DNA from: a virus
UHGV virus genome: UHGV-0200293
Strand: one strand, 5' to 3'
DNA length: 24,650 nt
The notes beneath the pieces were generated by a model. That model saw only the letters and a list, made by a program, of their open reading frames with translations, was not told the DNA's origin and ran no database searches. Shown piece after piece: positions 1 to 24,295 of this stretch. Every line of letters begins with the position of its first letter. The first letter of the stretch is position 1. The position numbers and the translations under genes are program-made.

Positions 1-271
1 CGGATTGTATGTATCTAATTTTTCTGGCTATGTTGTTGGGATATTGTTCAGTTACGTCCTTAACACATATTTTACTTTCTCGTCAAAGCCATCATTCAGA
101 AGGTTGGTTAAGTTCATTGTATGTTGTGCAGCCTGCTACGTCATCAATCTCATAGCCATGAAAACAACTATAGCATTTGGTTTTGAAAATAAATATTTAA
201 TCCAGCTGGCAGGGATGTTTTTCTATACAATCTCTGGTTTTTTAATTAATAAACTCTGGGTAATGAAATAA
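1..271 (+). CDS. gtrA: GtrA-family bactoprenol-linked glucose flippase, C-terminal 88-89 codons (5' end outside window)
   Basis: Small hydrophobic protein ending in stop that overlaps the gtrB ATG; gtrA-gtrB-gtrC order. Confidence 0.75.
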   Translation, partial: GLYVSNFSGYVVGILFSYVLNTYFTFSSKPSFRRLVKFIVCCAACYVINLIAMKTTIAFGFENKYLIQLAGMFFYTISGFLINKLWVMK

Positions 272-2914: not shown

Positions 2915-2942
2915 AAACAGGCCGCGAACGCGGCCTGTTTTT
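2913..2942. terminator. Bidirectional intrinsic terminator between gtrC and the convergent phage late operon
   Basis: AAAAA-CAGGCCGCG-AA-CGCGGCCTG-TTTTT: GC hairpin flanked by A-run and T-run, placed between two convergent stop codons. Confidence 0.7.
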
Positions 2943-3750
2943 ACACTATCGTCCCAGTACCATTTTTCCATACTGATCCGGTCCATGTTATAGCGTAACC
3001 TAAAGTTGTATCTAATATCTGCGCACCTGCGTCAACAAGACCAAGGGCGGGCCTTCCTGCGGTAGTAAAACTTGGCAGGCGCGGAGGCTTTACAAAGTTA
3101 ACAGAGTTAGCTGTTCCAAAACATGTAATACTAGCTGTAGTTAACTGTACTGTATATGTATTAGACCAAGCCCAGCGAGTTGTTCCATCATAATATCCAT
3201 TTGCAATTTTGTTATCAAATGTAGCTGGAGTAACTTCAACACCAGTAACAGCGATTGAATCAGCCACTTCGAACACCACGGTGTCAGCGTCGTAAACTTT
3301 CCACTCACCAGAGAAAGTGGAAATGTCGTTGGTCCCGAAGTCTCCAGACCATGACGTGGTATTCATGTAGCCCTGAATGTAGGTGCCAGCGTTCTCACCA
3401 GCGAAGTCGAAGCGTACCCAAAGGTTAGGCTGCCGACCTGCCTGCACTTCATCAAAGATGTACTTCGACAGACGCCACGCGCCGATCTCGTTATCTTTAT
3501 CCGACTTGCGAAACTCACCTTCACCGGAGATCGTCAGATCCATGTTGTTGACCAGGTTCTCCACCAGCCCTTTAGCATCATCTGCTTCGGAGTTGATGGT
3601 GTTCATCGAATAGTCGATGCCCTTGGTCGTCATAGCGCCGAGACGCTTCCACTCGGAAAGCGCTGGCACTGCGTCGGGGCAGCCAAAGGCCATGCGTAGC
3701 ACAGTTACTTTCCCGATCAGCTTGCCAAAATCATTAGCACAGCCTTGCAT
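2941..3750 (-). CDS. Phage major tail (tube)-like protein with C-terminal extension; last gene of the late operon
   Basis: 269 aa; N-terminal region (LGAMTTKGIDYSMNT...DLTISGEGEF) resembles TP901-1-type tail tube proteins from memory; RBS GAGAGG 5 nt before ATG. Confidence 0.4.
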   Translation of the reverse strand: MQGCANDFGKLIGKVTVLRMAFGCPDAVPALSEWKRLGAMTTKGIDYSMNTINSEADDAKGLVENLVNNMDLTISGEGEFRKSDKDNEIGAWRLSKYIFDEVQAGRQPNLWVRFDFAGENAGTYIQGYMNTTSWSGDFGTNDISTFSGEWKVYDADTVVFEVADSIAVTGVEVTPATFDNKIANGYYDGTTRWAWSNTYTVQLTTASITCFGTANSVNFVKPPRLPSFTTAGRPALGLVDAGAQILDTTLGYAITWTGSVWKNGTGTIV

Positions 3751-5841: not shown

Positions 5842-6852
5842 CTAGGTACGCCAGACATAATCGCTGTTATAGAAGAGGCGCGGGTCGGCTACTGTGCCGA
5901 ACGCCTGACCAATAATGGGGGCAATAACTCCAGCACCCAGCGGAACAATCAGGATCTGGTTGCCGGTCAACTGAGCATCTTCTTTTACTGCGGAAATACC
6001 AGATAACTTCAGAATCTCTTCCAGCACGGTGCGGGTTTTATTCTGAGTGTCGTAGTACTGCTCGAGGTTGGACATGATTTCTGCCGACACATGCCAGGTC
6101 TGCTGGCCATACTGATAGTTTTGAAGCTTCAGTACATCGCGCAGCGCAATCGCGGCAGCACGCATAGCGTCTGGATCAGTGCTGGTCGCGAAGTTTACTG
6201 TCAGTGTTACCTGAGCAACGCGCTCGTCCGCCTGCAGCCCTTTCCAGGTATAGTCATCAAATTTGATGAAATTGCCTTCGCTGTCGCGAAAACCATTCCA
6301 GATATAGTCCACATACTGACGGCGAACATCATCAACAGAGCCTGCCTGAGCGTCAGACAGTGATGCCAGAGCGGAACCTTTGTTGAATACCGGATCACGC
6401 CAGTTGAACTTAAAGCCGCTGTCATGGATCGACACCATCGTTCCGTCAAAGGTGTAGCTTTTCGCGTCCAGAGCGGCACCAATCTGACCTGACATAGAAG
6501 TGTGAGCCCAGCCTCGTCCGCCTTTGCGGGCATACTCGTACACTGATTCTTCCAGACGAACGGAACGGGACAGCGGCATCAGATCATTCAGTAGCGTAAA
6601 CTCTGTGGTCGGCTCAAACTCGGCCAGTACTGTCTGGTCATACGCTTTATACAGTCGGCGGATATCGTCTACTGCATTAACAACATCCAGTACAGGGGCG
6701 TTGGATGCCTCACCACGAAATTGCGCGCGGGAGATGAAATCTGCCACAGCCTGAGCGCTAGCATTGCGTGCGAATTGCAACTCCTGAAACTGAGCCTGGT
6801 TGGCCTCAAAGTTTCGGGTCTCCTTCGCCTTTTTCATAGAAAATGCAAACAT
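5842..6852 (-). CDS. Major capsid protein
   Basis: 336 aa; follows scaffold and decoration genes in canonical order. Confidence 0.6.
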   Translation of the reverse strand: MFAFSMKKAKETRNFEANQAQFQELQFARNASAQAVADFISRAQFRGEASNAPVLDVVNAVDDIRRLYKAYDQTVLAEFEPTTEFTLLNDLMPLSRSVRLEESVYEYARKGGRGWAHTSMSGQIGAALDAKSYTFDGTMVSIHDSGFKFNWRDPVFNKGSALASLSDAQAGSVDDVRRQYVDYIWNGFRDSEGNFIKFDDYTWKGLQADERVAQVTLTVNFATSTDPDAMRAAAIALRDVLKLQNYQYGQQTWHVSAEIMSNLEQYYDTQNKTRTVLEEILKLSGISAVKEDAQLTGNQILIVPLGAGVIAPIIGQAFGTVADPRLFYNSDYVWRT

Positions 6853-11880: not shown

Positions 11881-13356
11881 TTATGTGAAGAAGATTGCGC
11901 CGACCTGCTTGTGGTTGTTCTTCGCTACCGCAAAGTAGCGGAAGCCGTCAGCACCGTGTGATGTGAAGTCATGAAGCGGTTTATCTTTCCAGCATCCGCG
12001 CTTGTCGTCCCACTCCTTGCGGTAGCCTTCGAGGTGAGATATGCCCTCGGCACACTTCTCCTCATCGGATACACATGATGGGAGGATTTCACGCACCGAC
12101 TCAATGCCGGTATCAACTCCCACTTTCGGAACCACCTGAAACGTCATGCTGTAAACCTGCCCGTCGATTTCATACCCCTCGCGGGCAAGCTCTCTACGGG
12201 ATTTGGCGTCAGCACCGAATTCACGGTTATCGATGTCGTGCGGGCCCCAGTGCTCGTCGTACTCGTAGCCACGGTCTTTCAGCACCTTCATGTAGTGCCT
12301 CAGGCCCTCGCCAGAGTTTTCGTAGTAGTCGATGATGTGAAACTCTTCGCCAACCTCACGAACGAACCAGATAGCCGTAGAATCGCCCACGCCGATATCC
12401 CAGAACGTATGGACCGGAAGGTGCGAGTTGTCCGGGATTTGGCCGATTCGCTTGTTGGTGTAGAGCCAGCGGAATTGTTTGGCGTAGTACGCGCCCTCGA
12501 CAGACTGCTGGAAAGCCTCCGCCGGTATGTTCGGGTATTCGCGCTTCATGTCGTCGCCGAGAGTTTTCTCTTTGGCGTAGTACCATGCTTTCTGGCGCTC
12601 GTTGACGACTACACCATGCTTCGCCTCCATTTCAGCGAAGTACTCAACCAGGCGCACCGGCAGCGATTCAACCGGGTCGATTGCGTACTGCGGGTTCTTC
12701 CACCAGGAGAAGAAGAAAAACTTCCAGTCGAGCGCGGATAATGGCTTGCCTTGCAGCAACGCTTTCTCTGCCGTCTGGCAGTAATCGAAAAAGTACCCCG
12801 CCCGGCCCTCGGCTGTGCTCTCGATAGTAGCGAAGCATCCAGTCGATACCGCTTCAAACGCACCAGTGACGATTTCACGGGCTTTGTCAGGATACTTGGC
12901 GCATATCTTCCCGAACTCGGAAACGTGCAGGTAGCGCAGCGTACCGCCACGAAACGACGTGCTGACGTAGAGTGAGCCGCCCTTCTTAAAGACGAGCTCA
13001 CCGGAAGAGTCGTTGCTAGCCGGGTTGGCCGCCTTTATCTCTGCCGGCAACTTGTCATAGGCATACTTCACCTTTTCCCGAAAGAGGCGCTTTGCATCAT
13101 TCAGTGTGTGGGCGATCAGCGCGCACTTTGCAGACTCGAACAGCGCCGCGTCCAACTGGATGATGCACACCTCAGTTGTGAAACCGAGCTGGCGAGCTTT
13201 CAGGATGATATTACGTATATGGATCCCCTCAAAGTATTTCCGTTGCTCAGGCGTCATCCTGAACCGCGTCGGCTTTCCCTCTTTGTCGGTTATCCAGTAA
13301 AGATTGTTCAGCCGCCAGTCTTTGTCGGCCAGCAGCTTGAGGTGCTCAGGTTTCAT
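11881..13356 (-). CDS. Terminase large subunit
   Basis: 491 aa; start overlaps the small-subunit stop; followed by portal. Confidence 0.7.
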   Translation of the reverse strand: MKPEHLKLLADKDWRLNNLYWITDKEGKPTRFRMTPEQRKYFEGIHIRNIILKARQLGFTTEVCIIQLDAALFESAKCALIAHTLNDAKRLFREKVKYAYDKLPAEIKAANPASNDSSGELVFKKGGSLYVSTSFRGGTLRYLHVSEFGKICAKYPDKAREIVTGAFEAVSTGCFATIESTAEGRAGYFFDYCQTAEKALLQGKPLSALDWKFFFFSWWKNPQYAIDPVESLPVRLVEYFAEMEAKHGVVVNERQKAWYYAKEKTLGDDMKREYPNIPAEAFQQSVEGAYYAKQFRWLYTNKRIGQIPDNSHLPVHTFWDIGVGDSTAIWFVREVGEEFHIIDYYENSGEGLRHYMKVLKDRGYEYDEHWGPHDIDNREFGADAKSRRELAREGYEIDGQVYSMTFQVVPKVGVDTGIESVREILPSCVSDEEKCAEGISHLEGYRKEWDDKRGCWKDKPLHDFTSHGADGFRYFAVAKNNHKQVGAIFFT

Positions 13357-13958
13357 TACGCCCCCTGAGACAGTGAATCCATCAGGTCAGACAGTTGCTT
13401 AACAGAGTTGTCGCCTTCTGGCCCGTCGATATCGCAGGCCTGGCGTTCAAGTCCGATCAAGTTCTTCAGCGCGTCGCTCAGAGCCTTCACTGACTTAACT
13501 CGCTCCGGCATGCTGATGACCTTGTGGTAAATCTCATTGAGCTTGTCCTGGCCTTTGTCGTCGGGGTCGAGCATCAACTCTCCGAGCTTCTCCAGTGCGG
13601 CCACATCTGCGCACTCTGCGCCCAGCTCATCAAACAGCGCATTGGTTATCTGGCGTGCTCGCTTAATGTCACCGCGATGCTCCATGCGGACATTGGCTAT
13701 TACCTCAGCCGTCGCCTCGATGAGTACGCGTTCGTTAAAAGTGACTTCACTGCGTACCTGCTTGCGTACCTCTGCTTTGCGTACCAGATCGTCAGCGCGT
13801 TCTTTCACTTTCGCATTCAGGTCACGTGACCAGTCGTCACGCTTGGCACGCTTACGGATAGCGCCTTCGCTGATGCCGTGTTGAGATGCTATTTCTCGGA
13901 GAGACATCACCCCGGCCCGGTACGCCGTCTCGATGGCCTCCCAGTCGGGTTTGCTCAT
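13356..13958 (-). CDS. Terminase small subunit (HTH DNA-binding)
   Basis: 200 aa; N-terminal HTH-like SLREIASQHGISEGAIRKRAKR; first gene of the packaging module. Confidence 0.6.
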   Translation of the reverse strand: MSKPDWEAIETAYRAGVMSLREIASQHGISEGAIRKRAKRDDWSRDLNAKVKERADDLVRKAEVRKQVRSEVTFNERVLIEATAEVIANVRMEHRGDIKRARQITNALFDELGAECADVAALEKLGELMLDPDDKGQDKLNEIYHKVISMPERVKSVKALSDALKNLIGLERQACDIDGPEGDNSVKQLSDLMDSLSQGA

Positions 13959-14042
13959 GCCTTTTTCCTATTAAAATATTTCCATTGATGACCTATATTA
14001 AGAAGGAAGTAACCTGTCATCTATGCTACCAGGAGATTCTCG

Positions 14043-14231
14043 ATGGGTGAAAAAATTACTGAAGATGCTATTAAGCAAGCATATAGCGTTACCGTCATGC
14101 AACTTTTTAATGTCTATCTAAATTCGGCAAGCGATCCCAACGCATCAGCAAGATTTCAGGAAGGCCTTCGACTTGCTATACAAGTACGAGATGCCTGCAT
14201 GCAAATAGCCTCCCAAAACCATGCTCCATGA
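14043..14231 (+). CDS. Hypothetical small protein (62 aa), antisense to the late operon
   Basis: RBS AGGAGA 6 nt before ATG; located between terS and Rz. Confidence 0.4.
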   Translation: MGEKITEDAIKQAYSVTVMQLFNVYLNSASDPNASARFQEGLRLAIQVRDACMQIASQNHAP

Positions 14232-14292
14232 ATTTATTAGCGACCTATTCAAAAACTGCCATTACGATGGGTCTGCTCATGGTGATGGCAAT

Positions 14293-14315
14293 AAAAAACC
14301 GCCCGGAGGCGGTTT
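14293..14315. terminator. Intrinsic terminator, strong on minus strand
   Basis: AAAAAA-CCGCC-CGGA-GGCGG-TTT; minus-strand reading gives hairpin followed by UUUUUUAUUGCC. Confidence 0.6.
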
Positions 14316-14570
14316 AGGCCGAATTTATCTACTTCCCCGTTACCCACCACTATCAAACTCAACCGCAGATGAGCTTTGCAATGACCTAAAGTCTAGCCTA
14401 GTCGGCAGAATGCCTGCCTATTAAACATGCAGTCCGACCACTCTATAAAAATCGAAAAAATAACGTTCCGTTACAAGATGAGTGAAGTGTGATCCCGGAC
14501 AATAATTTTATAGCATCCTAGGCTATAAATTTATTACGGGAATCATCTCGCTCACATAGGAAGGCCTAAA

Positions 14571-14804
14571 ATGTCAGAAATAAACATAGAAAAGTTCAAA
14601 TTGGCGTTGGCAAATTTCAGCAGTGAACTATCAAATGCAGGGATTCCTTCAGAGGGCCTGAAAATTAGCATTGATTCTCCAGCACTAAGCCAGCCATTAC
14701 ATGAAGAAATAAGCGCAATGACTCCGATGAGGTTTCAATGTCATTGGGGACCTGGAATTGGCTTTACCTGCACATTTGGCACAGAAACCATGCCTGACAA
14801 ATAG
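14571..14804 (+). CDS. Hypothetical small protein (77 aa), antisense to the late operon
   Basis: RBS AGGAAGG 6 nt before ATG; palindrome TTTATAGC-N-GCTATAAA about 50 bp upstream. Confidence 0.4.
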   Translation: MSEINIEKFKLALANFSSELSNAGIPSEGLKISIDSPALSQPLHEEISAMTPMRFQCHWGPGIGFTCTFGTETMPDK

Positions 14805-14811
14805 CCATTGT

Positions 14812-15273
14812 TTATTGACATTGATTTTTAATGTAATTCTGCAAACCAGCAATTAGGATTTTGTTGGTTGCGATTCGTTCTCTGAGATTGAAATAATCCC
14901 GTTGAGCGGCGTCAGTAAGTCTGGCGCTGGCTGCATCATCCACGCCGGGGGCGGAGGTGGCTTTACGCACGCTGTCACAGGCTGCGGCGACGCGCAGCCG
15001 TTTAGCGCCAGAATCGACATCCCTACGCAAATCGCTAATGGTGTTTTGCGCATCGAATAACTCCTGTGTGTACTTCGCATCCAGCGCGGCAACATCGCGC
15101 TGCCGGGTTGTCATGTCGGTGATGGTGGCATTAGCCAGATTCAGCGCCTGAGTCTTCTCATCGCGCTGCTTCTTGTATTCTGTGGCGTTGTCGCGGTAGT
15201 GATTAACAGCCCAGCCAAGAGATACGATGATGCAGATGACCACAGCGATGATGGTTGCGGTTAACCTGCTCAT
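14812..15273 (-). CDS. Rz-like i-spanin
   Basis: N-terminal TM helix, coiled-coil periplasmic part; start overlaps endolysin stop. Confidence 0.7.
14853..15053 (-). CDS. Rz1-like o-spanin lipoprotein embedded in Rz
   Basis: Internal start [20 protein letters not shown] (lipobox) and Pro-rich body in the +1 frame of Rz. Confidence 0.6.
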
Positions 15274-15758
15274 TTCTCACCCCACAGGCAAACTTCGCGC
15301 TCAATCTCGCGGCGGGTCATCAGCCCTTTCCACTGCTTTCCGCCAGCGTAAGTCCAGCACCTTAACTGCTCGCATGCACCTTTGATATCGCCCTGGTTGA
15401 TTTTGTACAGGAGCGTTGAGGTCTTGAAGTTTCCAGCGCCAACGTTGTACGCGAAAGAGTAAATCGCTGCTCGTTGAGTTTCAGTAGTCGGCACTTTGAT
15501 GTGCGGATCAACCTGTGCGGCAGTTCGCGTTAAATCTTTCCTGGTTAGTGCGTCGCATTCTTTATCGGAGTATCGCTTTCCGGGAATGATGTCTGAACCT
15601 GTGTGTCCATCGCATACTGTAATTACACCAACGACGTCACGGTATGCGACATACTCCCTTCCCTCAACGCCATCCTTACCTGACAGCATGACTGTTGCGA
15701 TCGCAATCGCACCGCCACCGATGGAGGCAGCAATTTTATTTCGCAGGGTGCTGTTCAT
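15270..15758 (-). CDS. SAR endolysin (T4-lysozyme-type, phage 21 R-like)
   Basis: N-terminal signal-arrest-release segment [17 protein letters not shown] and C-terminal [21 protein letters not shown], close to phage 21 R as I recall it. Confidence 0.8.
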
Positions 15759-15871: not shown

Positions 15872-16030
15872 TTACTCACGCTTATTGAGCCTGTATGTCA
15901 GGACGCCGAGGATGATGCTGAACGCGACGCCAATGATGAAGCCCCAGTCCTGCAATGACAGGCTGGCAAAGAAAGCCGCAAGGCCAGCGCTGCCGTATGT
16001 CGCGTTGCTGTATCTTTCGTCCATCTTCAT
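15872..16030 (-). CDS. Pinholin-like class II holin (phage 21 S-like), 52 aa
   Basis: Met-Lys-Met dual start, two TM segments with Gly-rich first helix; not in ORF track (under 60 aa); RBS GAGGAG. Confidence 0.6.
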   Translation of the reverse strand: MKMDERYSNATYGSAGLAAFFASLSLQDWGFIIGVAFSIILGVLTYRLNKRE

Positions 16031-16212: not shown

Positions 16213-16473
16213 ATGCATCACATCTATCGCGTACAAGATACACAAGTGGCCAACTTTAGGCTTGAAGCACATAAGCACCACCCAGCACTTTCAATTCATC
16301 TTATCAGTACTGGAACCAGCATTAATGCAGGCAAATTCTTTAACTCTAATATTGAGGTTTTTGTTGCGATTTCTGACACCCAAACACTTGGCGCTTTGAA
16401 CTCAGATTTAATGCTAAACGCAGCAACAAAAAATAGCTTCACCCCGCTAGGAAGCGCAGAGTTTTATATTTGA
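16213..16473 (+). CDS. Hypothetical protein (86 aa), antisense gene between Q and holin
   Basis: RBS AGGAGG 4 nt before ATG; AT-rich; stop followed by a hairpin terminator. Confidence 0.45.
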   Translation: MHHIYRVQDTQVANFRLEAHKHHPALSIHLISTGTSINAGKFFNSNIEVFVAISDTQTLGALNSDLMLNAATKNSFTPLGSAEFYI

Positions 16474-16484
16474 GAAACAACAAT

Positions 16485-16515
16485 AAAAAAGCCCAAGGTG
16501 TTAACCTCGGGCTTT
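16485..16515. terminator. Hairpin terminator; candidate late terminator tR-prime on minus strand
   Basis: A6-GCCCAAGGTGTTAACCTCGGGC-TTT; minus-strand reading ends in UUUUUUAUUG, about 50 nt downstream of the candidate late promoter. Confidence 0.5.
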
Positions 16516-16567
16516 AATTCTTTGTGTCGACAATTAAAGCTATAACGACGATATCAGACTTACATAA

Positions 16568-16596: not shown

Positions 16597-17263
16597 GACT
16601 TACATTCGAATTTGTCGCCTTTTGTTGTAAACGTGATCGCGTTACGGAGATAAGCGCATCATTATCGAGCCGCTTAAAGACATTACGCAGTGCCAACCAG
16701 TGAGGCAGGTACGTCTCTGTCCAGGTGGATTTAGCTACGCCCACCAGCTCAGCCAGCTTCTGGTACTCGTACGTCTCGCGGCCGCACAGCTCTGCTTTGA
16801 CGTCCTGCGCCGCCAACCAGATTAACGCCCGGAGTCGCTCCAGCGTTTTTCCGGCGATTTTCTTGCCAGCGAGTTGCGCCGTAAACTTATTCCATGCCCA
16901 GCGGGTTATGTCGACCTGATATTCAAACCGAGTATTTTCACTGTAGCTCCAGAGCAACTAGGCTTTTTGATGCTCGTCGAGCGACATTAGCGCCCGACGC
17001 CATGAAGCAGTGGAGTATTCAACCGGCTGCACCAGCGGGATATGCGATCCTTTGGCGTGTGATTGTTTTCCGGGGATCGGAGGGTTGTTCAGCGTTATCA
17101 GTTTTCCCGTAACTTCATCGCGTACACGCAACCTCTTGCGGGGGTAAGTATTCGTATCGAACTGCGCGTTCTCCAGCCAGGCCATTAACTGACCCTTTGT
17201 CGCTCCGCTCAGATCTGCCGTGGCCGCAATCAGTTGCTGGCGAATATAGGATAAATTTTTCAC
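16580..17263 (-). pseudogene. Late-gene regulator (Q-antiterminator-like by position) interrupted by an in-frame amber codon
   Basis: ORF-track ORFs 16958..17263 and 16580..16957 are contiguous and in frame, separated only by TAG (16958-16960); the distal 125 codons contain no ATG; GTG start with SD GGGGA. Confidence 0.5.
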
Positions 17264-18822: not shown

Positions 18823-19071
18823 TCAGACCGTTGATTTCATATTATCAGAAGGTGGCGTTACCCGGTAGCCGAGACGGCGAATAAATTGCATAAAGCCATT
18901 GGGAGTAAAGACTTCTTCATCATCCAGCAAAGGCCGCATGGAAACCATGCCATTGACGCGATAGATAAGATGCCTGCCCGACGAAGGAAAGCTAAACACC
19001 ACGCAGCCGTCAGACCGTCTTACAATGTCATACCAGTTATCTTCTGACGTTTGCAAAGCTGAATTACTCAC
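18823..19071 (-). CDS. Hypothetical phage protein (82 aa), GTG start
   Basis: RBS AGGGAGA about 7 nt before GTG. Confidence 0.35.
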   Translation of the reverse strand: MSNSALQTSEDNWYDIVRRSDGCVVFSFPSSGRHLIYRVNGMVSMRPLLDDEEVFTPNGFMQFIRRLGYRVTPPSDNMKSTV

Positions 19072-19187
19072 ATTCTGTTCTCCCTTCGAGCGACATACAG
19101 ACGCGGTTAAAAATTGTCGGCAGCAGCATCAAAGGGATACGCAAATTGCGGTATTCTGAAAAATGCGCGCCAGCCCCAAGCGCAATG

Positions 19188-19421
19188 TTAGTAAAACCAG
19201 TCGTCAGCGCTTTCCCAGGTATCCTGGAGAATCTCCTCAATGCACTGCTTATCCCCTTTTTCACCCCCCAGAATACTCAGGCCGTCAGCTCCGGCGCGAC
19301 GAACTGTCAGTTTCACATCTTCATAGCTCTGACTGAGTCTGCGTAACAGTTCAGCTTCTAATGCTAGCACTGCGCCATCAGGAAGTTTCTTAGTACGATC
19401 AATGGTTAATTCAATTTTCAT
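19188..19421 (-). CDS. DinI-family protein (prophage copy)
   Basis: MKIELTIDRTKKLPDGAVLALEAELLRR...DKQCIEEILQDTWESADDWF aligns along its length with E. coli DinI as I recall it. Confidence 0.75.
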   Translation of the reverse strand: MKIELTIDRTKKLPDGAVLALEAELLRRLSQSYEDVKLTVRRAGADGLSILGGEKGDKQCIEEILQDTWESADDWFY

Positions 19422-19441
19422 AATGGGCTCCACCACGAAAA

Positions 19442-19457
19442 CTGTATATTTATACAG
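19442..19457. promoter_or_regulatory. LexA (SOS) box upstream of the dinI homologue
   Basis: CTGTATATTTATACAG fits CTGT-N8-ACAG; lies 21-36 nt upstream of the dinI-like ATG. Confidence 0.6.
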
Positions 19458-19530
19458 CACACCTATAAATCAGAATGATCAACGATTTAAGAGCACGAAT
19501 AGTTAACCTGCAGACACAAATTCCAGGCGT

Positions 19531-19552
19531 AAAAAAACCCGCCGAAGCGGGG
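19531..19552 (-). terminator. Intrinsic terminator (minus strand)
   Basis: Minus-strand RNA CCCCGC-UUCG-GCGGG followed by UUUUUUU. Confidence 0.55.
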
Positions 19553-19559
19553 TTAATCA

Positions 19560-19772
19560 TTAAGAGCATCGCGCCCTGGCTTTAATTTCTTGTCTTCCCA
19601 TACCGTGGTACCTGCGCTGATGACCACACATCCAACAGGAGCACAGACATGGTGTATGGTAGACCTTACCAAATGCAACTGGCCCACCAGAACACGCATT
19701 GCGGTAATGTCTGCGTTTTGATTTAAGCCTTGCAGCATGATGTCGGCGCAGAGCGCGCTTTTGTGATTTCAT
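19560..19772 (-). CDS. Small basic Cys/His-rich protein (70 aa), possibly zinc-binding
   Basis: RBS GGAG 7 nt before ATG; HTPCLCSCWMCGH cluster; an overlapping alternative frame (19553..19738) lacks an RBS. Confidence 0.3.
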   Translation of the reverse strand: MKSQKRALRRHHAARLKSKRRHYRNACSGGPVAFGKVYHTPCLCSCWMCGHQRRYHGMGRQEIKARARCS

Positions 19773-19913
19773 AACAGAACTCCGTAAATTTTATCGGAGC
19801 GGCCACACCTTCGCATAGCCGCCTGAACGGGAGCTCTGAATAGATTATTTTTCTCATTCTATTAATATGACATTAAAATATTCTGGACTAAAAAATAGCC
19901 TCATCGGGTTAGT

Positions 19914-20114
19914 TTACGGACGTGGATGCATCTTTCTCCATCGCTTCCAGAAACCATATTCTTGCCTAATATTGCTCTCGCAAGTAAGCCTTCCATACTT
20001 CGTTGTCGGTGGGTTAGCTATGATGCTCTCCAGCGATTCTCCAGCATCAAGGCGAGCATAAATTATGTAATCAGCCGCATTCGGATTTTTTGGCTCTGCC
20101 TTTCCAACACTCAT
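19914..20114 (-). CDS. Small putative HTH DNA-binding protein (66 aa), Ner/Cro-like?
   Basis: RBS AGGAGG 4 nt before internal ATG; ADYIIYARLDAGESLESIIA weakly resembles the Ner/Nlp HTH; first gene next to the divergent regulatory region. Confidence 0.3.
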   Translation of the reverse strand: MSVGKAEPKNPNAADYIIYARLDAGESLESIIANPPTTKYGRLTCESNIRQEYGFWKRWRKMHPRP

Positions 20115-20139
20115 GAATCCTCCTGACACTCAATGATAC

Positions 20140-20165
20140 GTGCTCTCTGATGTTATGGAGAGCAC
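20140..20165. promoter_or_regulatory. Inverted repeat GTGCTCTC-N10-GAGAGCAC in the 5' leader of the 66-aa gene
   Basis: Perfect 8-bp arms read from sequence. Confidence 0.4.
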
Positions 20166-20290
20166 ATCAGCGTAAACAAATATTATTAGGCCACGGTCTC
20201 TTTCAATACTAGGGCCTCGTCGAACGGCTGCGGCACAGCATTACCGCAGCGGGAAACCCTGCGTGGTAGATTTCGTGCAGTTGAAACATT

Positions 20291-20317
20291 AGTAATGAAG
20301 TCTGTCACTTCATTACT
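20291..20317. promoter_or_regulatory. Inverted repeat AGTAATGAAGT-CTGTC-ACTTCATTACT
   Basis: Perfect 11-bp arms, plus a third partial copy (GAAGTAATG) immediately downstream. Confidence 0.4.
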
Positions 20318-20365
20318 GAAGAAGTAATGTAACTATCATATTTTAAATATCTGAAAATAACTATA

Positions 20366-20385
20366 CAATTCAATAAATTGAATTG
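20366..20385. promoter_or_regulatory. 20-bp palindrome CAATTCAAT-AA-ATTGAATTG before the lipoprotein gene
   Basis: Perfect 9-bp arms, 20 bp upstream of the lipoprotein ATG. Confidence 0.4.
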
Positions 20386-20405
20386 CAGCATGACGGGAAA
20401 CATAT

Positions 20406-20810
20406 ATGATAAAATTTTTAATGTTGATTGTGGTGACATTAACCATTGCAGGTTGCTCCCCTCTTGCACCTACAGGCTGTCAGAAAAAAAACGCAATGGA
20501 ATCATGCGAATATAAGAGTTCAGGTAAAGTGTCGGATAAGGATATATATGGATGGTACTCATCCAGAATAAAAAAAGCTTTGGACGCAGCACTTACAGAG
20601 CCCCATGCCTGGAATGGTAAAAGATGTGACGCTCATCTGGATTTCAAAGTCGATGGCACCCTGCAAAATTTTATCGTGAAAGGTGGTGACAAAGATTATT
20701 GCGCTGCATTGCAAAAAGCTTCTGAAAGAGCGACATTCCCGGCGTTTACCGATCGGAGAGTTTACTTTAATATGGGTTCCGCAAGATGGAACTTCGAAGG
20801 TCAGCCATGA
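20406..20810 (+). CDS. Lipoprotein with TolA C-terminal (domain III)-like domain
   Basis: Signal peptide with lipobox LTIAGC; C-terminus GKRCDAHLDFKVDGTLQNFIVKGGDKDYCAALQKA...FPAF aligns with E. coli TolA GKTCTLRIKLAPDGMLLDIKPEGGDPALCQAALAAA...IPKPP (from memory). Confidence 0.6.
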   Translation: MIKFLMLIVVTLTIAGCSPLAPTGCQKKNAMESCEYKSSGKVSDKDIYGWYSSRIKKALDAALTEPHAWNGKRCDAHLDFKVDGTLQNFIVKGGDKDYCAALQKASERATFPAFTDRRVYFNMGSARWNFEGQP

Positions 20811-21093
20811 AAACTATGGTGCGCCGGGAGATCCCCGGCGTTCTCAACCTGAGAAAAAACCATTTTCACTTCTGCTGGTCAAACAGCTTCCTCAACATCC
20901 ACCAGCAGCAGGTTTTCCAGCTCTATAATCCGATTGGTGGTGTATTGCAGAAGTTGATCCATCATGCCTCCTGCTGCGGTGCTGCTGGCAGTGGCATCCA
21001 GTGAGTTGGCTTGCAATAAACACCACCACCATTCGGAAGTGATGCAAACCTAAACCATCCATCTGTTTCATTGTGCTCAATGTATCCGACCAT

Positions 21094-21381
21094 CTACTCT
21101 TTCTTATCAGCGCAGTAAACCTGAACATCAACATCGCGATCCGGCATCCGCTCGCTTACCGGAATCCATCTGCCTGGCAACTTGTAAGCGTCACTTACAG
21201 GTTCATCGTTCTGAGCATCACGCAGAGCACAAAAGACTTTATTACGCAATTCGTTGAACTCGTCAGAGCGAATAACCCTGCGCCAGTCCAGCGCATGAGC
21301 GTACAGGAAATCACTGGCGAGGTTAGCACCACGACCAGCGCGCAGGAATCGGCAACTAACGTTGATGCCGTTGCCGACGAT
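21094..21381 (-). pseudogene. Remnant of a DUF551-like phage early gene (no start codon, truncated)
   Basis: Minus-frame translation ...LDWRRVIRSDEFNELRNKVFCALRDAQNDEPVSDAYKLPGRWIPVSERMPDRDVDVQVYCADKKE* is open without any usable start; W-I-x-V-S-E-R-M-P motif resembles DUF551. Confidence 0.3.
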
Positions 21382-21705
21382 CTACGCGATCGCATTGATA
21401 CAGCAAGCTCCGTTGTTCAGGCAAAAGCCATTCGCGTGGATATCGAATCACAGAAAGTGTTGCTGGGAACCGCCCTGTACACCGAACTGAAAAATAAGGC
21501 GGTGAAACGTTACTACCAGGTCGATGCGCAGAACAAGGTCGGGGCTGTGATCAACTCACTTCCAAATCCCGGCGAACCGGAAGCCACAGCGATGTTCGCT
21601 AAAGCTGAAAGTACGCTCACCGCAGCCAAACGTCATCTGGGCGATGAACTGTATGACCAGTTCCGCATCACCCTGGACGACATGAAACCGGAATACGTGG
21701 GCTAA
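21295..21705 (+). CDS. Hypothetical early-region protein (about 137 aa, start uncertain)
   Basis: 3' part of ORF-track ORF 21073..21705; upstream part overlaps the minus-strand remnant; weak RBS at the ATG. Confidence 0.3.
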   Translation: MSVQEITGEVSTTTSAQESATNVDAVADDLRDRIDTASSVVQAKAIRVDIESQKVLLGTALYTELKNKAVKRYYQVDAQNKVGAVINSLPNPGEPEATAMFAKAESTLTAAKRHLGDELYDQFRITLDDMKPEYVG

Positions 21706-21744
21706 GGGAGGCGGGAGGGCGGCCCTCCCGTCACAGGGGGTTAT

Positions 21745-21984
21745 ATGCGCCTTATCAATCGCAGTAAGCAATCGCCGTTAGGTCGTCGGGCGTGCGATGC
21801 AGCACTGGCAAAGCATGTTGAACTTTACGGGGAGTTTGGCCGACAGAAAACAAAGACCACTTATACCGTGGCAGTCGACGGCGTGAAGGTGACGGTTGAA
21901 GTTGTTAACCGACACAAGAGCTATGTAGCCACCGCAATGACAGGTATGCGCCGACTGCGCGCACTGCCAGGGCAGATAGCCTGA
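21745..21984 (+). CDS. Hypothetical protein (79 aa)
   Basis: RBS AGGGGG 4 nt before ATG; preceded by a GC hairpin GGGAGGG-CGG-CCCTCCC. Confidence 0.35.
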   Translation: MRLINRSKQSPLGRRACDAALAKHVELYGEFGRQKTKTTYTVAVDGVKVTVEVVNRHKSYVATAMTGMRRLRALPGQIA

Positions 21985-22048
21985 TAACGAATTATCAATG
22001 TCACAACACCGGCGCATCTATACTGGCGCCGGTTACCTGAGGTGAACT

Positions 22049-22264
22049 ATGTCACAGGTAATTTTTAACGAAGAGTGGGTTGTTGAGTCCAGACTTACCG
22101 AAAGAACAGGGCTTACTGAAGGACAGATTAAAAATTATCGCCTGAAGCTATGGGTTGAAGGTGTTCACTTCAAGCGCCTTACTGCGCTTGGACAGACTGA
22201 CAACTCTAAAGGTCTGCTTTGGTACAACTACCCGAAGATTAATCAGTTAGTTCAGGATGCTTAA
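22049..22264 (+). CDS. Excisionase-like protein
   Basis: 71 aa immediately upstream of and overlapping the integrase start; RBS GAGGTG. Confidence 0.5.
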   Translation: MSQVIFNEEWVVESRLTERTGLTEGQIKNYRLKLWVEGVHFKRLTALGQTDNSKGLLWYNYPKINQLVQDA

Positions 22265-23550
22265 TGAAATACCCGACTGGTGTTGAACTGCATAACGGAA
22301 AAATCAGGATCACATTTATCTATCGCGGCATTCGTTGCCGCGAAGTTCTCCAGGGTTGGGTTGTCAACAGTAGCAACATTAAAAAAGCGGGCAATCTGCG
22401 CGCAGCAATTGTGAGTGAGATACAACTCGGTAAGTTCGACTACGCAGATCGTTTCCCGGAATCAAAAGCTCTTAAGAAATTTTCGTCCACAAAACGGATC
22501 TCCACATTCAAAGAACTGAGTGATTTTTTTACAGATACAAAGTCACTGGAGGTATCTGAAGCCACTTTGCTATCCATCACATCAGTCGTTAACACCCTGA
22601 AACGAGTCGTGGGCGAGAACACACGGCTGGTTGATATTCAGCACGCAGATATTCTGAATTACCGCAAAGAACTCCTGACCGGGGAAGTTTTCAACCCTTC
22701 AATACCAAACCGCATCAAAAATGGGCGCGCGCCCTCAACAGTCAATAAACAGATGGCTGTTTTATCAGAAATGCTGAAGCTTGCAAACCGAAGCCAGTTT
22801 ATATTGCATGCTCCTTATGAAGGAGTGTCGCGACTCAAGTTATCTAAAAATGATCCCGACCCACTTTTACTTCATGAGTACCAGGCACTGATAGCCGCCC
22901 TTCCCCGTAGCCAGGCATTAATCATCATTATTGCGGTACATACAGGGATGAGGCCGGGCGAGATATGCGCACTGGCATGGGAAGATATTGATTTGGTAAA
23001 AGGTGAAATCCACGTATCCAGAAATTTGACGAACAAGCAAGTATTTGTACCCCCTAAAACAGATGCCGGGATAAGGACGATAACGTTGCTGAAACCTGCT
23101 CATGATGCTCTGCTGGAGCAATACGAAATCACTGGGAACAGTCCAAAACAGGAAATTCAGTTTCATCATCGTGAGATCGGAAAAACTGAGCAGCAATATC
23201 TTCGCTTCGTTTTTTCACCGACAACATACTCGTCAACGAAAGGCGGTTACTTTTCCAAGGACTCGATTTCGTATGGCTGGAAACGTGGGACTAAACTTTC
23301 AGGTATACGTGAGCGCAATCCATATCAGTCGCGTCACACATATGCCTGCTGGACGCTGATGGCCGGAGCGACCCCGTCGTTCATTGCCAGCCAGATGGGA
23401 CATGAAGATGCGCGGATGGTATACGAGGTTTACTCCAAGTGGATTGGTGATATGAACCAGGATCAGGTCAACATGCTGAACAATCAGATGCCGACAGCAC
23501 TGCCTCCAGGACGCCCCCAAGGGCGAGGGAGTATGAAAAAAGTCATTTAA
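22264..23550 (+). CDS. int: Tyrosine-type site-specific integrase
   Basis: 428 aa; C-terminal catalytic region with SRHTYA and GHEDARMVYEVY; at the prophage end next to the host gene. Confidence 0.85.
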   Translation: MKYPTGVELHNGKIRITFIYRGIRCREVLQGWVVNSSNIKKAGNLRAAIVSEIQLGKFDYADRFPESKALKKFSSTKRISTFKELSDFFTDTKSLEVSEATLLSITSVVNTLKRVVGENTRLVDIQHADILNYRKELLTGEVFNPSIPNRIKNGRAPSTVNKQMAVLSEMLKLANRSQFILHAPYEGVSRLKLSKNDPDPLLLHEYQALIAALPRSQALIIIIAVHTGMRPGEICALAWEDIDLVKGEIHVSRNLTNKQVFVPPKTDAGIRTITLLKPAHDALLEQYEITGNSPKQEIQFHHREIGKTEQQYLRFVFSPTTYSSTKGGYFSKDSISYGWKRGTKLSGIRERNPYQSRHTYACWTLMAGATPSFIASQMGHEDARMVYEVYSKWIGDMNQDQVNMLNNQMPTALPPGRPQGRGSMKKVI

Positions 23551-23620
23551 TTTCATAGCGCTGGTTTCAATCCACATAATCAGCGTTAAACTACTAATAC
23601 CGTTAATTTAGGGAGAAAAG

Positions 23621-24295
23621 ATGATGCGCGTACTGGTTGTCGAAGATAATGCCTTATTACGCCACCACCTGAAGGTTCAATTACAGGATTTGGGGCACCA
23701 GGTTGATGACGCAGAAGATGCAAAGGAAGCCGATTATTATCTTAACGAGCATCTGCCGGACATCGCCATCGTCGATTTAGGCCTCCCGGATGAAGACGGG
23801 CTTTCGCTGATCCGCCGCTGGCGCAGCAATGACGTTTCCCTTCCTGTTCTGGTATTAACCGCCCGTGAGGGCTGGCAGGATAAAGTGGAAGTGCTGAGCG
23901 CCGGCGCCGACGACTACGTGACAAAACCGTTTCATATTGAAGAAGTGGTCGCGCGTATGCAGGCGTTAATGCGCCGCAACAGCGGCCTGGCCTCGCAGGT
24001 TATCTCTATTCCGCCTTTTCAGGTGGATCTCTCCCGCCGTGAATTGTCCGTAAATGATGAAGTGATAAAATTGACGGCGTTTGAATACACCATTATGGAA
24101 ACGCTGATCCGCAATAATGGCAAAGTCGTCAGCAAAGATTCGTTGATGCTACAGCTCTACCCGGATGCGGAACTGCGTGAAAGCCATACCATTGATGTAT
24201 TAATGGGGCGCTTACGCAAAAAAATTCAGGCGCGATATCCTGATGATGTGATTACCACCGTCCGTGGTCAGGGATACCTGTTCGAACTGCGCTAA
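23621..24295 (+). CDS. phoP: Two-component response regulator PhoP
   Basis: Near-identical along its length to enterobacterial PhoP ([19 protein letters not shown]...TVRGQGY.FELR); real start may be the second Met at 23624. Confidence 0.95.

What the first reader, a model, noticed from the sequence alone, without database searches (positions are those of the whole stretch)
14043..14804. Two small antisense genes with their own RBS and a palindromic element between lysis and packaging modules
Between Rz and terS (the position of bor in lambda) lie two plus-strand ORFs of 62 and 77 aa, each with a good Shine-Dalgarno sequence. They are separated by a strong hairpin terminator (14293-14315) and the second is preceded by TTTATAGC-N-GCTATAAA. 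Neither protein matches anything I recognise; the second has a Cys/Trp-rich C-terminus (FQCHWGPGIGFTCTF).
Basis: seen in the sequence. Interest (0 to 1): 0.4.

Follow-up and report, generated by a model that had tools for sequence, protein, structure and literature searches.

The report
Two orphan moron genes in prophage
Two small genes of unknown function sit backwards between the lysis and DNA-packaging genes of an enterobacterial prophage; both are real, conserved protein-coding "moron" cassettes, an ordinary kind of prophage cargo, but they belong to two very rare, uncharacterised protein families.

Summary
Between Rz (14812-15273, -) and terS (13356-13958, -) lie two plus-strand ORFs, 14043-14231 (62 aa) and 14571-14804 (77 aa). 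Each has a Shine-Dalgarno sequence. A hairpin terminator (14296-14315) lies between them, and a dyad (14501-14535, arms 13/14 complementary) precedes the second.

Both ORFs are real genes.
- ORF1 is always 62 aa in five diverged lineages, with pN/pS of 0.12-0.31 only in its own frame. It travels as a roughly 400-bp cassette: a terS 5' fossil, a promoter-like site, the ORF and a terminator. The cassette occurs in prophages with four unrelated terminase types. AlphaFold2 predicts a confident two-helix hairpin.
- ORF2 has one diverged homologue (52% identity, synonymous sites saturated). That homologue is also antisense, just upstream of the packaging genes of an HK97-like prophage. It keeps the C-terminal motif F-x-C-H-x2-P-G-x(1-2)-G-x-T-C-T-F-G.

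Neither protein matches Pfam, PHROGs, NCBIfam, PADLOC or PDB.

- The terminator's U-run is on the late (minus) strand.
- The terminator belongs to a roughly 60-nt element shared by many phages.
- The dyad is not conserved in the one ORF2 homologue.

Best reading: two independent AT-rich morons, as lambda bor is, probably expressed from the prophage. Their biochemical function is unknown. Interest is modest.

The parts
13911..13958 (-). 5' end of terS. It travels with the ORF1 cassette and marks the left border of the mosaic unit.
   Evidence: Homology to loci with unrelated terminases begins at 13864-13931. In L011, which has a lambda Nu1/gpA terminase, the piece survives as a 22-codon fossil, MSELNWETIESAYWIEVINSRA.
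13971..13999 (+). Promoter-like site for ORF1: -35 TTAAAA (13971-13976), 17-nt spacer, -10 TATATT (13994-13999).
   Evidence: Matches 9 of 12 consensus positions. The equivalent site (TATAGT/TATGGT) lies at the same distance, 44-46 nt before the ATG, in L003, L011, L015 and L026; it is weaker in L007. That it acts as a promoter is inferred, not shown.
14031..14035 (+). Shine-Dalgarno sequence AGGAG of ORF1, 7 nt before the ATG.
   Evidence: Read directly from the sequence. Kept as AGGAG or AGGAT in all lineages.
14043..14231 (+). ORF1: a 62-aa soluble acidic protein predicted to be a two-helix hairpin. Real gene, uncharacterised family.
   Evidence: Twelve 90%-identity clusters in all (the 10, plus P0012 and the query's own), all at least 81% identical. 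Always 62 aa with no indels, and pN/pS is 0.12-0.31 in this frame only, which is the only open frame. AlphaFold2 gives pLDDT 90 with helices 2-26 and 34-59. pI 5.6, no transmembrane segment.
14257..14291 (.). Conserved 35-nt imperfect hairpin sequence GCCATTACGATGG...CCATGGTGATGGC ('hairpin-1'), the first half of a widely shared 60-nt element.
   Evidence: Matches in 12 phage records and 29 E. coli genomes. Aligned copies are shown. It folds with z = -4.05, but 17 distinct copies show no compensatory change, so it is conserved as primary sequence.
14296..14315 (-). Intrinsic terminator hairpin AAACCGCC-CGGA-GGCGGTTT. The U6 tail is on the late (minus) strand and only UUU follows on the plus strand. 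It also marks the right border of the ORF1 cassette.
   Evidence: The scanner calls it on the minus strand. The A-run is invariant across copies, while the plus-strand T-run is not. Homology to all ORF1 loci ends at 14291-14316. Other lineages carry a different hairpin at the same place.
14501..14535 (.). Dyad-symmetric element AATAATTTTATAGC-N7-GCTATAAATTTATT, upstream of ORF2.
   Evidence: Arms 13 of 14 complementary. Single copy in the window. Not conserved in L022. The 41 IMG/VR matches to the 8-bp core are unrelated chance hits. A role as an operator is conjecture.
14524..14530 (+). TATAAAT, the candidate -10 element of ORF2, inside the right arm of the dyad.
   Evidence: It is the only upstream motif, apart from the RBS/start region, that aligns with L022, about 41 nt before the ATG in both. 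No good -35 was found. Low confidence.
14558..14564 (+). Shine-Dalgarno sequence AGGAAGG of ORF2, 6 nt before the ATG.
   Evidence: Read directly from the sequence. The segment GCCTAAAATGTC around the start codon is conserved in L022.
14571..14804 (+). ORF2: a 77-aa soluble acidic protein. Real gene of a very rare family. Its stop codon lies 7 nt from the convergent Rz stop.
   Evidence: Only its own cluster was found by the word-index search. A full HMMER scan of 1.84e9 representatives found one homologue, P0013: 79 aa, 52% identity, E 8e-13. Against that homologue pN is 0.33 and pS about 1.0, i.e. saturated, and the indels are in whole codons. A Klebsiella variicola variant differs by I32V, A49S and T72S. 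pI 4.9, no transmembrane segment.
14733..14780 (+). Codons for the conserved C-terminal motif F55-x-C57-H58-x2-P61-G62-x-G64-x-T66-C67-T68-F69-G70.
   Evidence: These are invariant columns in the ORF2/P0013 alignment. A low-confidence AlphaFold2 model places C57 and C67 on the two strands of a beta-hairpin (pLDDT 50, so only a hint).

Best explanation
The 853-bp gap between Rz and terS holds two independent 'moron' cassettes. Each encodes a small soluble acidic protein on the strand opposite to the late operon.

**Shown**
- Both ORFs are real protein-coding genes under purifying selection.
- ORF1 belongs to a discrete unit of about 400 bp (13911-14316). The unit comprises a fossil of a terS 5' end, an 84-nt upstream region with a positionally conserved sigma-70-like site and an AGGAG, the 62-codon ORF, a conserved 3' region, and a hairpin terminator.
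- This unit has been moved by recombination into prophages with at least four unrelated packaging modules. It always sits between the lysis and packaging genes and is always antisense.
- ORF2 and its only known homologue occupy the same antisense slot in two unrelated prophages.
- The region is AT-rich compared with its flanks.

**Inferred**
- As with lambda bor, each gene is transcribed from its own promoter in the repressed prophage.
- The hairpin at 14296-14315 acts chiefly as a late-strand intrinsic terminator. It would keep unmodified RNA polymerase coming from the Rz side out of the packaging genes, while Q-modified polymerase reads through it in lytic growth.
- The same hairpin probably also ends the ORF1 transcript, less efficiently.
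- The proteins have no enzyme-like, membrane or DNA-binding features. ORF1 is a helical hairpin that probably has to oligomerise or dock onto a partner to bury its hydrophobic face. ORF2 has an N-terminal helix and a Cys/His-bearing C-terminal hairpin.
- They therefore most likely act by binding a host protein or a protein of an incoming phage, giving a lysogen-benefit or exclusion-type function.
- The dyad at 14501-14535 overlaps the likely ORF2 promoter and may be an operator.

The biochemical function of both proteins is not established.
For: **Context**
- Rz, endolysin, holin, terS and terL are all on the minus strand.

**ORF1 is coding**
- Always 62 aa, with no indels.
- pN/pS is 0.12-0.31 in frame +0. 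That is the only frame without stops; the other frames give about 1, except the wobble-sharing antisense frame, which has 2 stops.

**ORF1 is a cassette**
- Alignment borders lie at 13864-13931 and 14291-16 in every lineage.
- It sits between lysis and packaging genes, antisense, in prophages with these packaging modules:
  - phrog_1206 terS (L003-8);
  - lambda Nu1/gpA (L011, L013, L014);
  - Terminase_2/Terminase_6 (L015-18);
  - another Terminase_2-like terS in Buttiauxella (L026).
- A 22-codon terS fossil survives in L011.
- Phages with a near-identical terS 5' end lose homology exactly at the terS start, so they lack the cassette.

**ORF1 signals**
- The promoter-like site is conserved in position.
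- A hairpin always follows ORF1, even where its sequence differs.

**ORF2 is coding**
- Homologue P0013: E 8e-13, 52% identity, same start (MS.IN), conserved C-terminal motif, pN 0.33 against saturated pS.
- P0013 lies antisense, just upstream of HNH-terS-TerL-portal, in a Klebsiella-phage-like contig.

**Composition and protein character**
- GC is 38-47% in the gap against 51-60% in the flanks, and the AT-skew flips.
- Both proteins are soluble and acidic, with no transmembrane segment.
- ORF1 structure: pLDDT 90, two-helix hairpin.

**Terminator strand**
- The scanner places it on the minus strand.
- In SKA5, Oslo and E. coli PCP06021 the same element lies between genes that are all on the late strand.

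**Definition**
- The definition of a moron is taken from PMC2629481.
Against: - There are no expression data, so transcription from own promoters in the lysogen is inferred only from architecture and from the analogy with bor.
- No convincing -35/-10 pair was found for ORF2. No terminator follows ORF2, so its transcript would run antisense into Rz.
- On the plus strand the hairpin has only three U, so ORF1 termination there may be poor.
- The dyad is absent from the one ORF2 homologue, which weakens the operator idea.
- The ORF2 model has low confidence (pLDDT 50).
- The ORF2 comparative evidence rests on a single diverged homologue.
- The prophage in the window looks truncated, so its regulation may not reflect a working phage.
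Confidence: 0.65

Rival explanations
1. The plus-strand transcription units act mainly as regulators of the late operon rather than through their proteins. Convergent transcription, or antisense RNA against the Rz 3' end (ORF2 transcript) and against the late read-through RNA upstream of terS (ORF1 transcript), would damp lysis or packaging gene expression in the lysogen or time it during induction. The proteins would be secondary or dual-function.
For: - Both units are fully antisense to the late transcript.
- ORF2 stops 7 nt from the Rz stop and has no terminator, so its RNA must overlap Rz/Rz1.
- The ORF1 cassette is always kept next to the start of the packaging genes, or a fossil of it.
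- There is precedent in the P22 ant moron: antisense sar RNA, and an effect of that moron on read-through into the tailspike gene (PMC2629481).
Against: - Both ORFs show clear protein-level constraint: pN/pS 0.12-0.31 for ORF1, and pN 0.33 with saturated pS for ORF2. A pure antisense-RNA role does not explain this.
- The ORF1 cassette works next to unrelated terS genes, so base-pairing with a specific target is unlikely.
- ORF1 is transcribed away from terS and does not overlap the terS coding sequence.
Confidence: 0.12
2. The genes are expressed during infection rather than from the prophage. For example, they could be anti-defence or host-takeover factors, or modulators of terminase or lysis, and not lysogenic-conversion genes.
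For: - Small, acidic, soluble proteins with no family match are typical of phage anti-defence proteins (established knowledge; not tested here).
- ORF1 is persistently linked to the terS start.
- There are no expression data either way.
Against: - The orientation is opposite to the late operon and there is no nearby early promoter. Expression during lytic growth would have to fight head-on late transcription.
- The cassette is found with four unrelated terminase types, so a specific terminase partner is unlikely.
- Both genes are intact in a prophage that appears truncated, which fits selection acting in the host.
Confidence: 0.12
3. ORF2 is a precursor peptide, bacteriocin- or RiPP-like. The roughly 50-residue N-terminal part would be a leader, and the conserved Cys-containing tail (F-C-H..PG..G-TCTFG) the matured core.
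For: - The architecture fits: helical N-terminal region, variable linker, strictly conserved Cys/His/Gly-rich C-terminus.
- An unrelated 81-aa ORF with a Cys/His-rich tail occupies the same slot in L012-14.
Against: - No modifying enzyme, protease or exporter is adjacent in the window or in L022.
- There is no match to any leader-peptide family in Pfam or NCBIfam, even at E up to 10.
- There is no Gly-Gly-type cleavage motif before the tail.
- The N-terminal part is as conserved as the tail.
Confidence: 0.04
4. One or both ORFs are chance open frames in a non-coding spacer, for example a packaging-site region or leader. The conservation would then reflect DNA or RNA function only.
For: - The ORFs are short.
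- ORF2 was an orphan by the first search.
- The 3' region after ORF1 is conserved as DNA although it is not coding.
Against: - The frame-specific excess of synonymous change and constant length of ORF1 across five lineages.
- ORF2 is 52% identical at the protein level to its homologue while the DNA is saturated at synonymous sites and the indels are in whole codons.
- The cassette occurs with unrelated terminases, so it is not a pac or cos site.
Confidence: 0.03
5. ORF1 and the overlapping 29-aa hydrophobic ORF (14228-14317, ATGA overlap) form a two-gene module, such as a small membrane toxin with its partner.
For: - The start and stop overlap in ATGA.
- The peptide is hydrophobic: MNLLATYSKTAITMGLLMVMAIKNRPEAV.
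- It was called as a gene in L001 and L015.
Against: - A 2-nt indel changes the frame in L003-6, and L007-10 have no start codon (TAA stop, no ATG).
- The stretch is conserved as DNA in phages that lack ORF1 altogether.
- There is no match in NCBIfam.
Confidence: 0.02

Closest known systems
Lambda bor, the classical moron between Rz and the cos/Nu1 end of the late operon (established knowledge)
   Same: - Same slot, downstream of Rz/Rz1 and upstream of the packaging genes.
- Same orientation, antisense to late transcription.
- A small ORF with its own translation signals.
- AT-rich relative to its neighbours.
   Different: - Bor is a lipoprotein with a signal peptide and lipobox. ORF1 and ORF2 have no hydrophobic N-terminus, no transmembrane segment and no Pfam match.
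- There is no sequence relationship.
- There are two cassettes here rather than one.
Morons as defined for HK97 and the lambdoid phages, and the P22-like 'ant moron' (PMC2629481)
   Same: - Independently organised small genes that appear inserted into the late operon when related phages are compared.
- Variable content at a fixed location.
- Small proteins, a nearby dyad-symmetric site, and antisense transcription relative to the late operon.
   Different: - Different location: the lysis-packaging junction rather than upstream of the tailspike gene.
- No ribbon-helix-helix repressors (Mnt/Arc) or antirepressor.
- Expression from the prophage was not shown here.
Post-lysis accessory region of P22-like and other lambdoid phages (Rha-family or KilA-N gene plus a small ORF) followed by the shared hairpin-1 + terminator element
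   Same: The window carries the same roughly 60-nt element (14257-14316), in the same orientation and the same place relative to the packaging genes.
   Different: In those phages the element follows late-strand accessory genes. In the window those genes are replaced by the antisense ORF2 cassette, and there is no late-strand ORF between Rz and the terminator.

Membership tests
Moron (independently expressed insertion in a phage operon) | Present or absent between genes that are adjacent in related phages, with sharp borders | tested here: met
   - ORF1 unit borders lie at 13864-13931 and 14291-14316 in all lineages.
- Phages with a 93-100% identical terS 5' end lose homology at the terS start.
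- The ORF2 segment 14317-14866 has no match in any related locus except the distant L022.
Moron (independently expressed insertion in a phage operon) | Base composition different from the surrounding operon | tested here: met
   GC is 38-47% across 13900-14900, against 51-60% in terS/terL and Rz/endolysin. The AT-skew changes sign.
Moron (independently expressed insertion in a phage operon) | Own promoter and own terminator | tested here: inconclusive
   - ORF1: a positionally conserved 9/12 sigma-70-like site and a hairpin downstream in every lineage. On the plus strand the window's hairpin has only UUU after it.
- ORF2: only a conserved TATAAAT. No -35 and no terminator.
Moron (independently expressed insertion in a phage operon) | Expressed from the repressed prophage | not testable with these tools
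   No transcriptome or proteome data are available.
Lambda Bor lipoprotein family | Signal peptide with lipobox, and sequence match to the Bor family | tested here: not met
   No Pfam hit at E up to 1. The maximum 19-residue Kyte-Doolittle mean is 0.58 for ORF1 and 0.38 for ORF2, and there is no N-terminal Cys.
Rho-independent (intrinsic) terminator | GC-rich stem-loop followed directly by a U-run on the transcribed strand | tested here: met
   - Minus strand: 8-bp stem with 5 GC pairs, 4-nt loop, U6.
- The A-run that encodes the U-run is invariant in copies from other phages.
- Plus strand: only 3 U, so the feature is not met there in the window, although L004/L005 have CTTTTATT.
Structured RNA motif (hairpin-1, 14257-14291) | Base pairs maintained by compensatory substitutions | tested here: not met
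   Across 17 distinct copies, 89.5% of cells are paired but no pair has a change on both sides, and the covariation score is not above shuffles. No Rfam family matches.
TPR_10/TPR_12 repeat proteins (weak phmmer hits P0014-P0017) | Match to a TPR profile above threshold | tested here: not met
   ORF2 and P0013 give no Pfam hit. The library E-values arise from summing 4-8 repeat-wise matches of 25-29 bits each.
Known anti-phage defence proteins (PADLOC-DB) | Match to a defence-system profile | tested here: not met
   No hits at E up to 10 for either ORF.
Small-toxin / coupled two-gene module (ORF1 + 29-aa ORF) | Second reading frame conserved across lineages | tested here: not met
   The frame is broken by a 2-nt indel in L003-6, and there is no start codon in L007-10.

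The most novel reading that the evidence does not exclude
One or both proteins found a new family of prophage-encoded effectors of very small size. Examples would be a superinfection-exclusion or anti-phage factor, or an inhibitor of a host or phage protein. ORF1, a portable 62-residue helical hairpin, would act as an oligomeric binder. ORF2 would use its invariant C-H...C beta-hairpin to bind a metal or form a disulfide. A separate novel possibility is that the 60-nt hairpin-1 + terminator element is a previously undescribed functional signal, shared across lambdoid phages at the lysis-packaging boundary.
Probability: 0.2. Interest if true: 0.6.

Novelty: new member of a known kind. Interest (0 to 1): 0.33.

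Why it matters
Morons at the lysis-packaging junction are where temperate phages keep cargo that benefits the lysogen, such as serum resistance, exclusion and defence. These two genes are bona fide members of that class, but they belong to protein families with no annotation anywhere. ORF1 is known from about a dozen 90%-identity clusters. ORF2 is known from two, out of roughly 15 billion proteins.

If either gene gives a phenotype, it would add a very small and easily studied effector to the catalogue of prophage functions. ORF1 is attractive for that purpose because it is a self-contained 400-bp cassette that has already been placed by nature into several phage backgrounds.

In itself the finding is an ordinary feature of lambdoid prophage architecture. 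It does not open a long-standing question.

Tried and rejected
**Family and structure searches that found nothing**
1. Pfam, PHROGs, NCBIfam and PADLOC for both ORFs and for the 29-aa ORF: no hits.
2. tblastn against 50,697 deposited phages: none for either ORF.
3. PDB sequence profiles: nothing.
5. The ORF2 structure model had pLDDT 50, so it was not used for fold search.

**Further homologue hunts**
6. ORF2 relatives in the genome, viral and metagenome contig collections by pattern scan: none.

**Leads judged spurious or not supported**
7. The TPR-repeat proteins returned by phmmer were judged spurious, because their scores are summed over repeats.
8. The 81-aa ORF in the same slot in L012-14 is not homologous to ORF2.
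9. The 29-aa overlapping ORF and the 67-aa ORF 14221-14424 were rejected as genes. The frame is not conserved and the latter ORF spans the terminator.
10. The palindrome as a widespread operator: the 41 IMG/VR matches are unrelated chance hits, and there is no second copy in the window.
11. Hairpin-1 as a structured RNA: no covariation, and no Rfam match.
12. A cos/pac-site explanation for the conserved DNA was rejected, because the element and the ORF1 cassette occur with unrelated terminase types.

**Literature**
13. One literature search failed on a term that was too short. The second gave only general moron literature.
Full report
**Setting**

The window carries a lambdoid prophage whose late genes lie on the minus strand:
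- Q: 16958-17263
- holin: 15872-16030
- endolysin: 15270-15758 (PF00959)
- Rz: 14812-15273 (PF03245), with Rz1 embedded
- terS: 13356-13958 (phrog_1206)
- terL: 11881-13356

An 853-bp gap separates Rz from terS. Exact-match look-ups place this prophage in Citrobacter (C. freundii and unclassified Citrobacter) and in Klebsiella variicola.

**Check of the observation**

Two refinements follow.
- The hairpin AAACCGCC-CGGA-GGCGGTTT (14296-14315) is scored as a terminator on the minus strand, where six U follow the GC stem. On the plus strand only three U follow.
- The palindrome is larger than described. Its arms are 14 nt (14501-14514 and 14522-14535), 13 of 14 complementary, with a 7-nt spacer.

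Perfect 8-bp inverted repeats are uncommon in shuffles of the gap, averaging 0.21. The dyad is a single copy in the window.

The gap is AT-rich, at 38-47% GC against 51-60% in the flanks, and the AT-skew changes sign.

**ORF1 is a real gene in a portable cassette**

The word-indexed search of 5.8 billion clusters found 10 clusters at 81-100% identity. A profile search added one more, a frameshift fusion. The named source organisms are Citrobacter, Klebsiella variicola, Hafnia, Enterobacter bugandensis and an Acinetobacter-labelled MAG.

One of 185,579 species-representative genomes carries the gene (Buttiauxella). Three IMG/VR contigs carry it. None of 50,697 deposited phages does.

In five diverged lineages the ORF is always 62 codons with no indels. 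Nei-Gojobori pN/pS is 0.12-0.31 in the annotated frame, which is the only frame free of stops. The other frames give ratios near 1. The exception is the antisense frame that shares wobble positions, and that frame has two stops.

A 1-nt indel upstream means that an alternative upstream ATG is not consistently in frame. This supports 14043 as the start.

The DNA alignment shows a discrete unit. Homology begins inside the first 27-94 nt of terS. It runs through the 84-nt intergenic region, ORF1 and about 65 nt of 3' sequence. It ends at the terminator hairpin (14291-14316).

The unit lies in the same place and orientation, between lysis and packaging genes and antisense, in prophages with four kinds of packaging module:
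- phrog_1206 terS;
- lambda-type Nu1/gpA;
- Terminase_2/Terminase_6;
- a further Terminase_2-like terS.

In the lambda-terminase prophage the terS piece survives only as a 22-codon fossil. Conversely, phages with a 93-100% identical terS 5' end lose homology exactly at the terS start, so they lack the cassette.

A sigma-70-like site matches 9 of 12 consensus positions: TTAAAA, 17 nt, TATATT, at 13971-13999. It recurs at the same distance from the ATG in four other lineages. This is a consensus match, not proof of a promoter.

**ORF1 protein**

AlphaFold2 with the shallow family alignment gives pLDDT 90. The model has two antiparallel helices, residues 2-26 and 34-59.

The protein is soluble and mildly acidic, with pI 5.6 and no transmembrane segment.

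**ORF2 is also a real gene, of a very rare family**

The word-indexed search found only its own cluster. That cluster includes a K. variicola variant with three conservative changes.

The exhaustive HMMER scan of 1.84 billion representatives found one true homologue, P0013: 79 aa, 52% identity, E 8e-13. The two proteins share:
- the start (MS-IN);
- the segment AL-NFS-ELS--GIP-EGL;
- the C-terminal motif F-x-C-H-x2-P-G-x(1-2)-G-x-T-C-T-F-G.

At the DNA level synonymous sites are saturated (pS about 1.0) while pN is 0.33, and the indels are in whole codons.

P0013 is encoded antisense, immediately upstream of an HNH-terS-TerL-portal-protease-capsid block. That block is about 80% identical to Klebsiella HK97-like phages. 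The family therefore occupies the same kind of slot in an unrelated prophage.

The remaining phmmer hits are long TPR_10/TPR_12 proteins. Their scores are sums of 25-29-bit repeat matches. Neither ORF2 nor P0013 matches any TPR profile, so I treat these hits as spurious.

The AlphaFold2 model has low confidence (pLDDT 50). At most it hints at an N-terminal helix and a C-terminal beta-hairpin that carries the two Cys.

Pattern scans of the genome, viral and metagenome collections found no further relatives.

**Signals around ORF2**

Upstream of the RBS/start region, only one motif aligns between the window and L022. It is TATAAAT, about 41 nt before the ATG (14524-14530), and it lies in the right arm of the dyad. 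No acceptable -35 accompanies it.

L022 lacks the dyad. It has a different 8-bp inverted repeat between that motif and its RBS.

The dyad's 8-bp core occurs 41 times in IMG/VR, but with unrelated flanks, at about the number chance predicts.

The dyad is therefore real in this sequence and may be an operator or an RNA hairpin. Its function is not supported by conservation.

No terminator follows ORF2. Its stop is 7 nt from the convergent Rz stop, so its transcript must overlap Rz/Rz1.

**The terminator belongs to a shared element**

Window 14257-14316 matches 12 phage records and 29 E. coli genomes at 85-100% identity.

The element has three parts:
- a 35-nt imperfect hairpin sequence (GCCATTACGATGG...CCATGGTGATGGC);
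- an invariant A-run;
- a terminator hairpin.

In some lineages the terminator stem is replaced by an unrelated hairpin while the 35-nt part stays.

In CobraSix, SKA5, Oslo and two E. coli prophages the element has the same orientation relative to the late genes. It sits between post-lysis accessory genes (Rha-family or other small ORFs) and the packaging genes. In several of these cases all neighbouring genes are on the late strand.

The conserved A-run encodes the U-run of the late strand, whereas the plus-strand T-run is variable. I conclude that the terminator works primarily on the late strand. I infer that it blocks unmodified polymerase from entering the packaging genes, while Q-modified polymerase passes through. 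It is well placed to end ORF1 transcription too, though weakly in this window.

The 35-nt hairpin folds better than shuffles, with z = -4.05. Across 17 distinct copies, however, it shows no compensatory change, and it matches no Rfam family. It is conserved as primary sequence, and its role is unexplained.

**Explanation**

The architecture meets the sequence-level criteria of morons (definition in PMC2629481):
- presence or absence with sharp borders;
- deviant base composition;
- own translation signals;
- for ORF1, a promoter-like site and a terminator.

It also mirrors lambda bor in position and orientation (established knowledge).

I therefore read the locus as two independent moron cassettes encoding small soluble proteins, probably expressed from the prophage. 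They most likely act by binding other proteins. Expression and function remain to be shown.

Alternatives are listed with their tests in the rival explanations:
- an antisense or transcriptional-interference role;
- expression during infection;
- a precursor-peptide role for ORF2;
- a chance ORF;
- a two-gene module with the 29-aa ORF.

The last two are contradicted by the comparative data.

**Verdict**

This is a new instance of a well-known kind of prophage feature that carries two unannotated, rare protein families. It is of modest interest unless a phenotype is found.

Noticed in passing
window 16488-16564 (-): Full-length match to the Rfam family isrJ (RF01393, 55.5 bits, gathering score 37). 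It lies between the Q antiterminator gene (16958-17263) and the holin, which is the position of the lambda pR'/6S leader-terminator. This suggests that the isrJ 'sRNA' is the short late-promoter transcript of this kind of prophage.
   Followed up: no
window 14257-14316; second copies at L012:1790-1829 and L023:1343-1380: A roughly 60-nt element (35-nt hairpin sequence + A-run + terminator) is shared by many enterobacterial phages at the lysis-packaging boundary. Extra copies of the 35-nt part occur elsewhere in two prophage contigs. It is conserved as sequence, with no covariation, and its function is unknown.
   Followed up: partly
window 16213-16473 (+): Another antisense 86-aa ORF lies in a second AT-rich gap (GC 36-42%) between the isrJ-like RNA and the holin. 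It has no Pfam or PHROG match and was called as a gene in L001/L002. It may be a third moron.
   Followed up: no
window 271-3750 and 19000-24295: The prophage looks truncated. Structural genes stop after a major tail protein (2941-3750, phrog_853) and are followed by a GT2 glycosyltransferase (271-1227). The early region is reduced to a RecT-like C-terminal fragment (21073-21705). After that come an integrase (22264-23550) and a host response regulator (23621-24295).
   Followed up: partly
L002:4689-5388 and 6242-6637: A sister contig carries the same ORF1/ORF2 region, but terL and the portal gene are deleted (a 131-aa fused ORF is left) and Rz is shorter at 131 aa. The morons are intact while the packaging genes decay.
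   Followed up: no
window 14228-14317 (+): A 29-aa hydrophobic ORF (MNLLATYSKTAITMGLLMVMAIKNRPEAV) overlaps the ORF1 stop by ATGA. The frame is kept in three lineages but broken by a 2-nt indel or loss of the ATG in two. In Citrobacter cronae a frameshift fuses it to ORF1 (P0012, 129 aa).
   Followed up: yes
L013:5440-5685 (+), L012:3107-3352 (+): In lambda-terminase prophages that carry ORF1, the slot taken by ORF2 in the window holds an unrelated 81-aa antisense ORF with a Cys/His/Ser-rich tail (..SSSSSKADAIINCSHSHCS). It has a similar build to ORF2 but no detectable homology.
   Followed up: partly
L011:4846-4914 (-); L015:4512-4856 (-): Fossils of the phrog_1206-type terS N-terminus travel with the ORF1 cassette into prophages that use other terminases. 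The fossil is a 22-codon stub in L011 and a 114-aa ORF beginning MRKPDWEVIETA.. in L015.
   Followed up: partly
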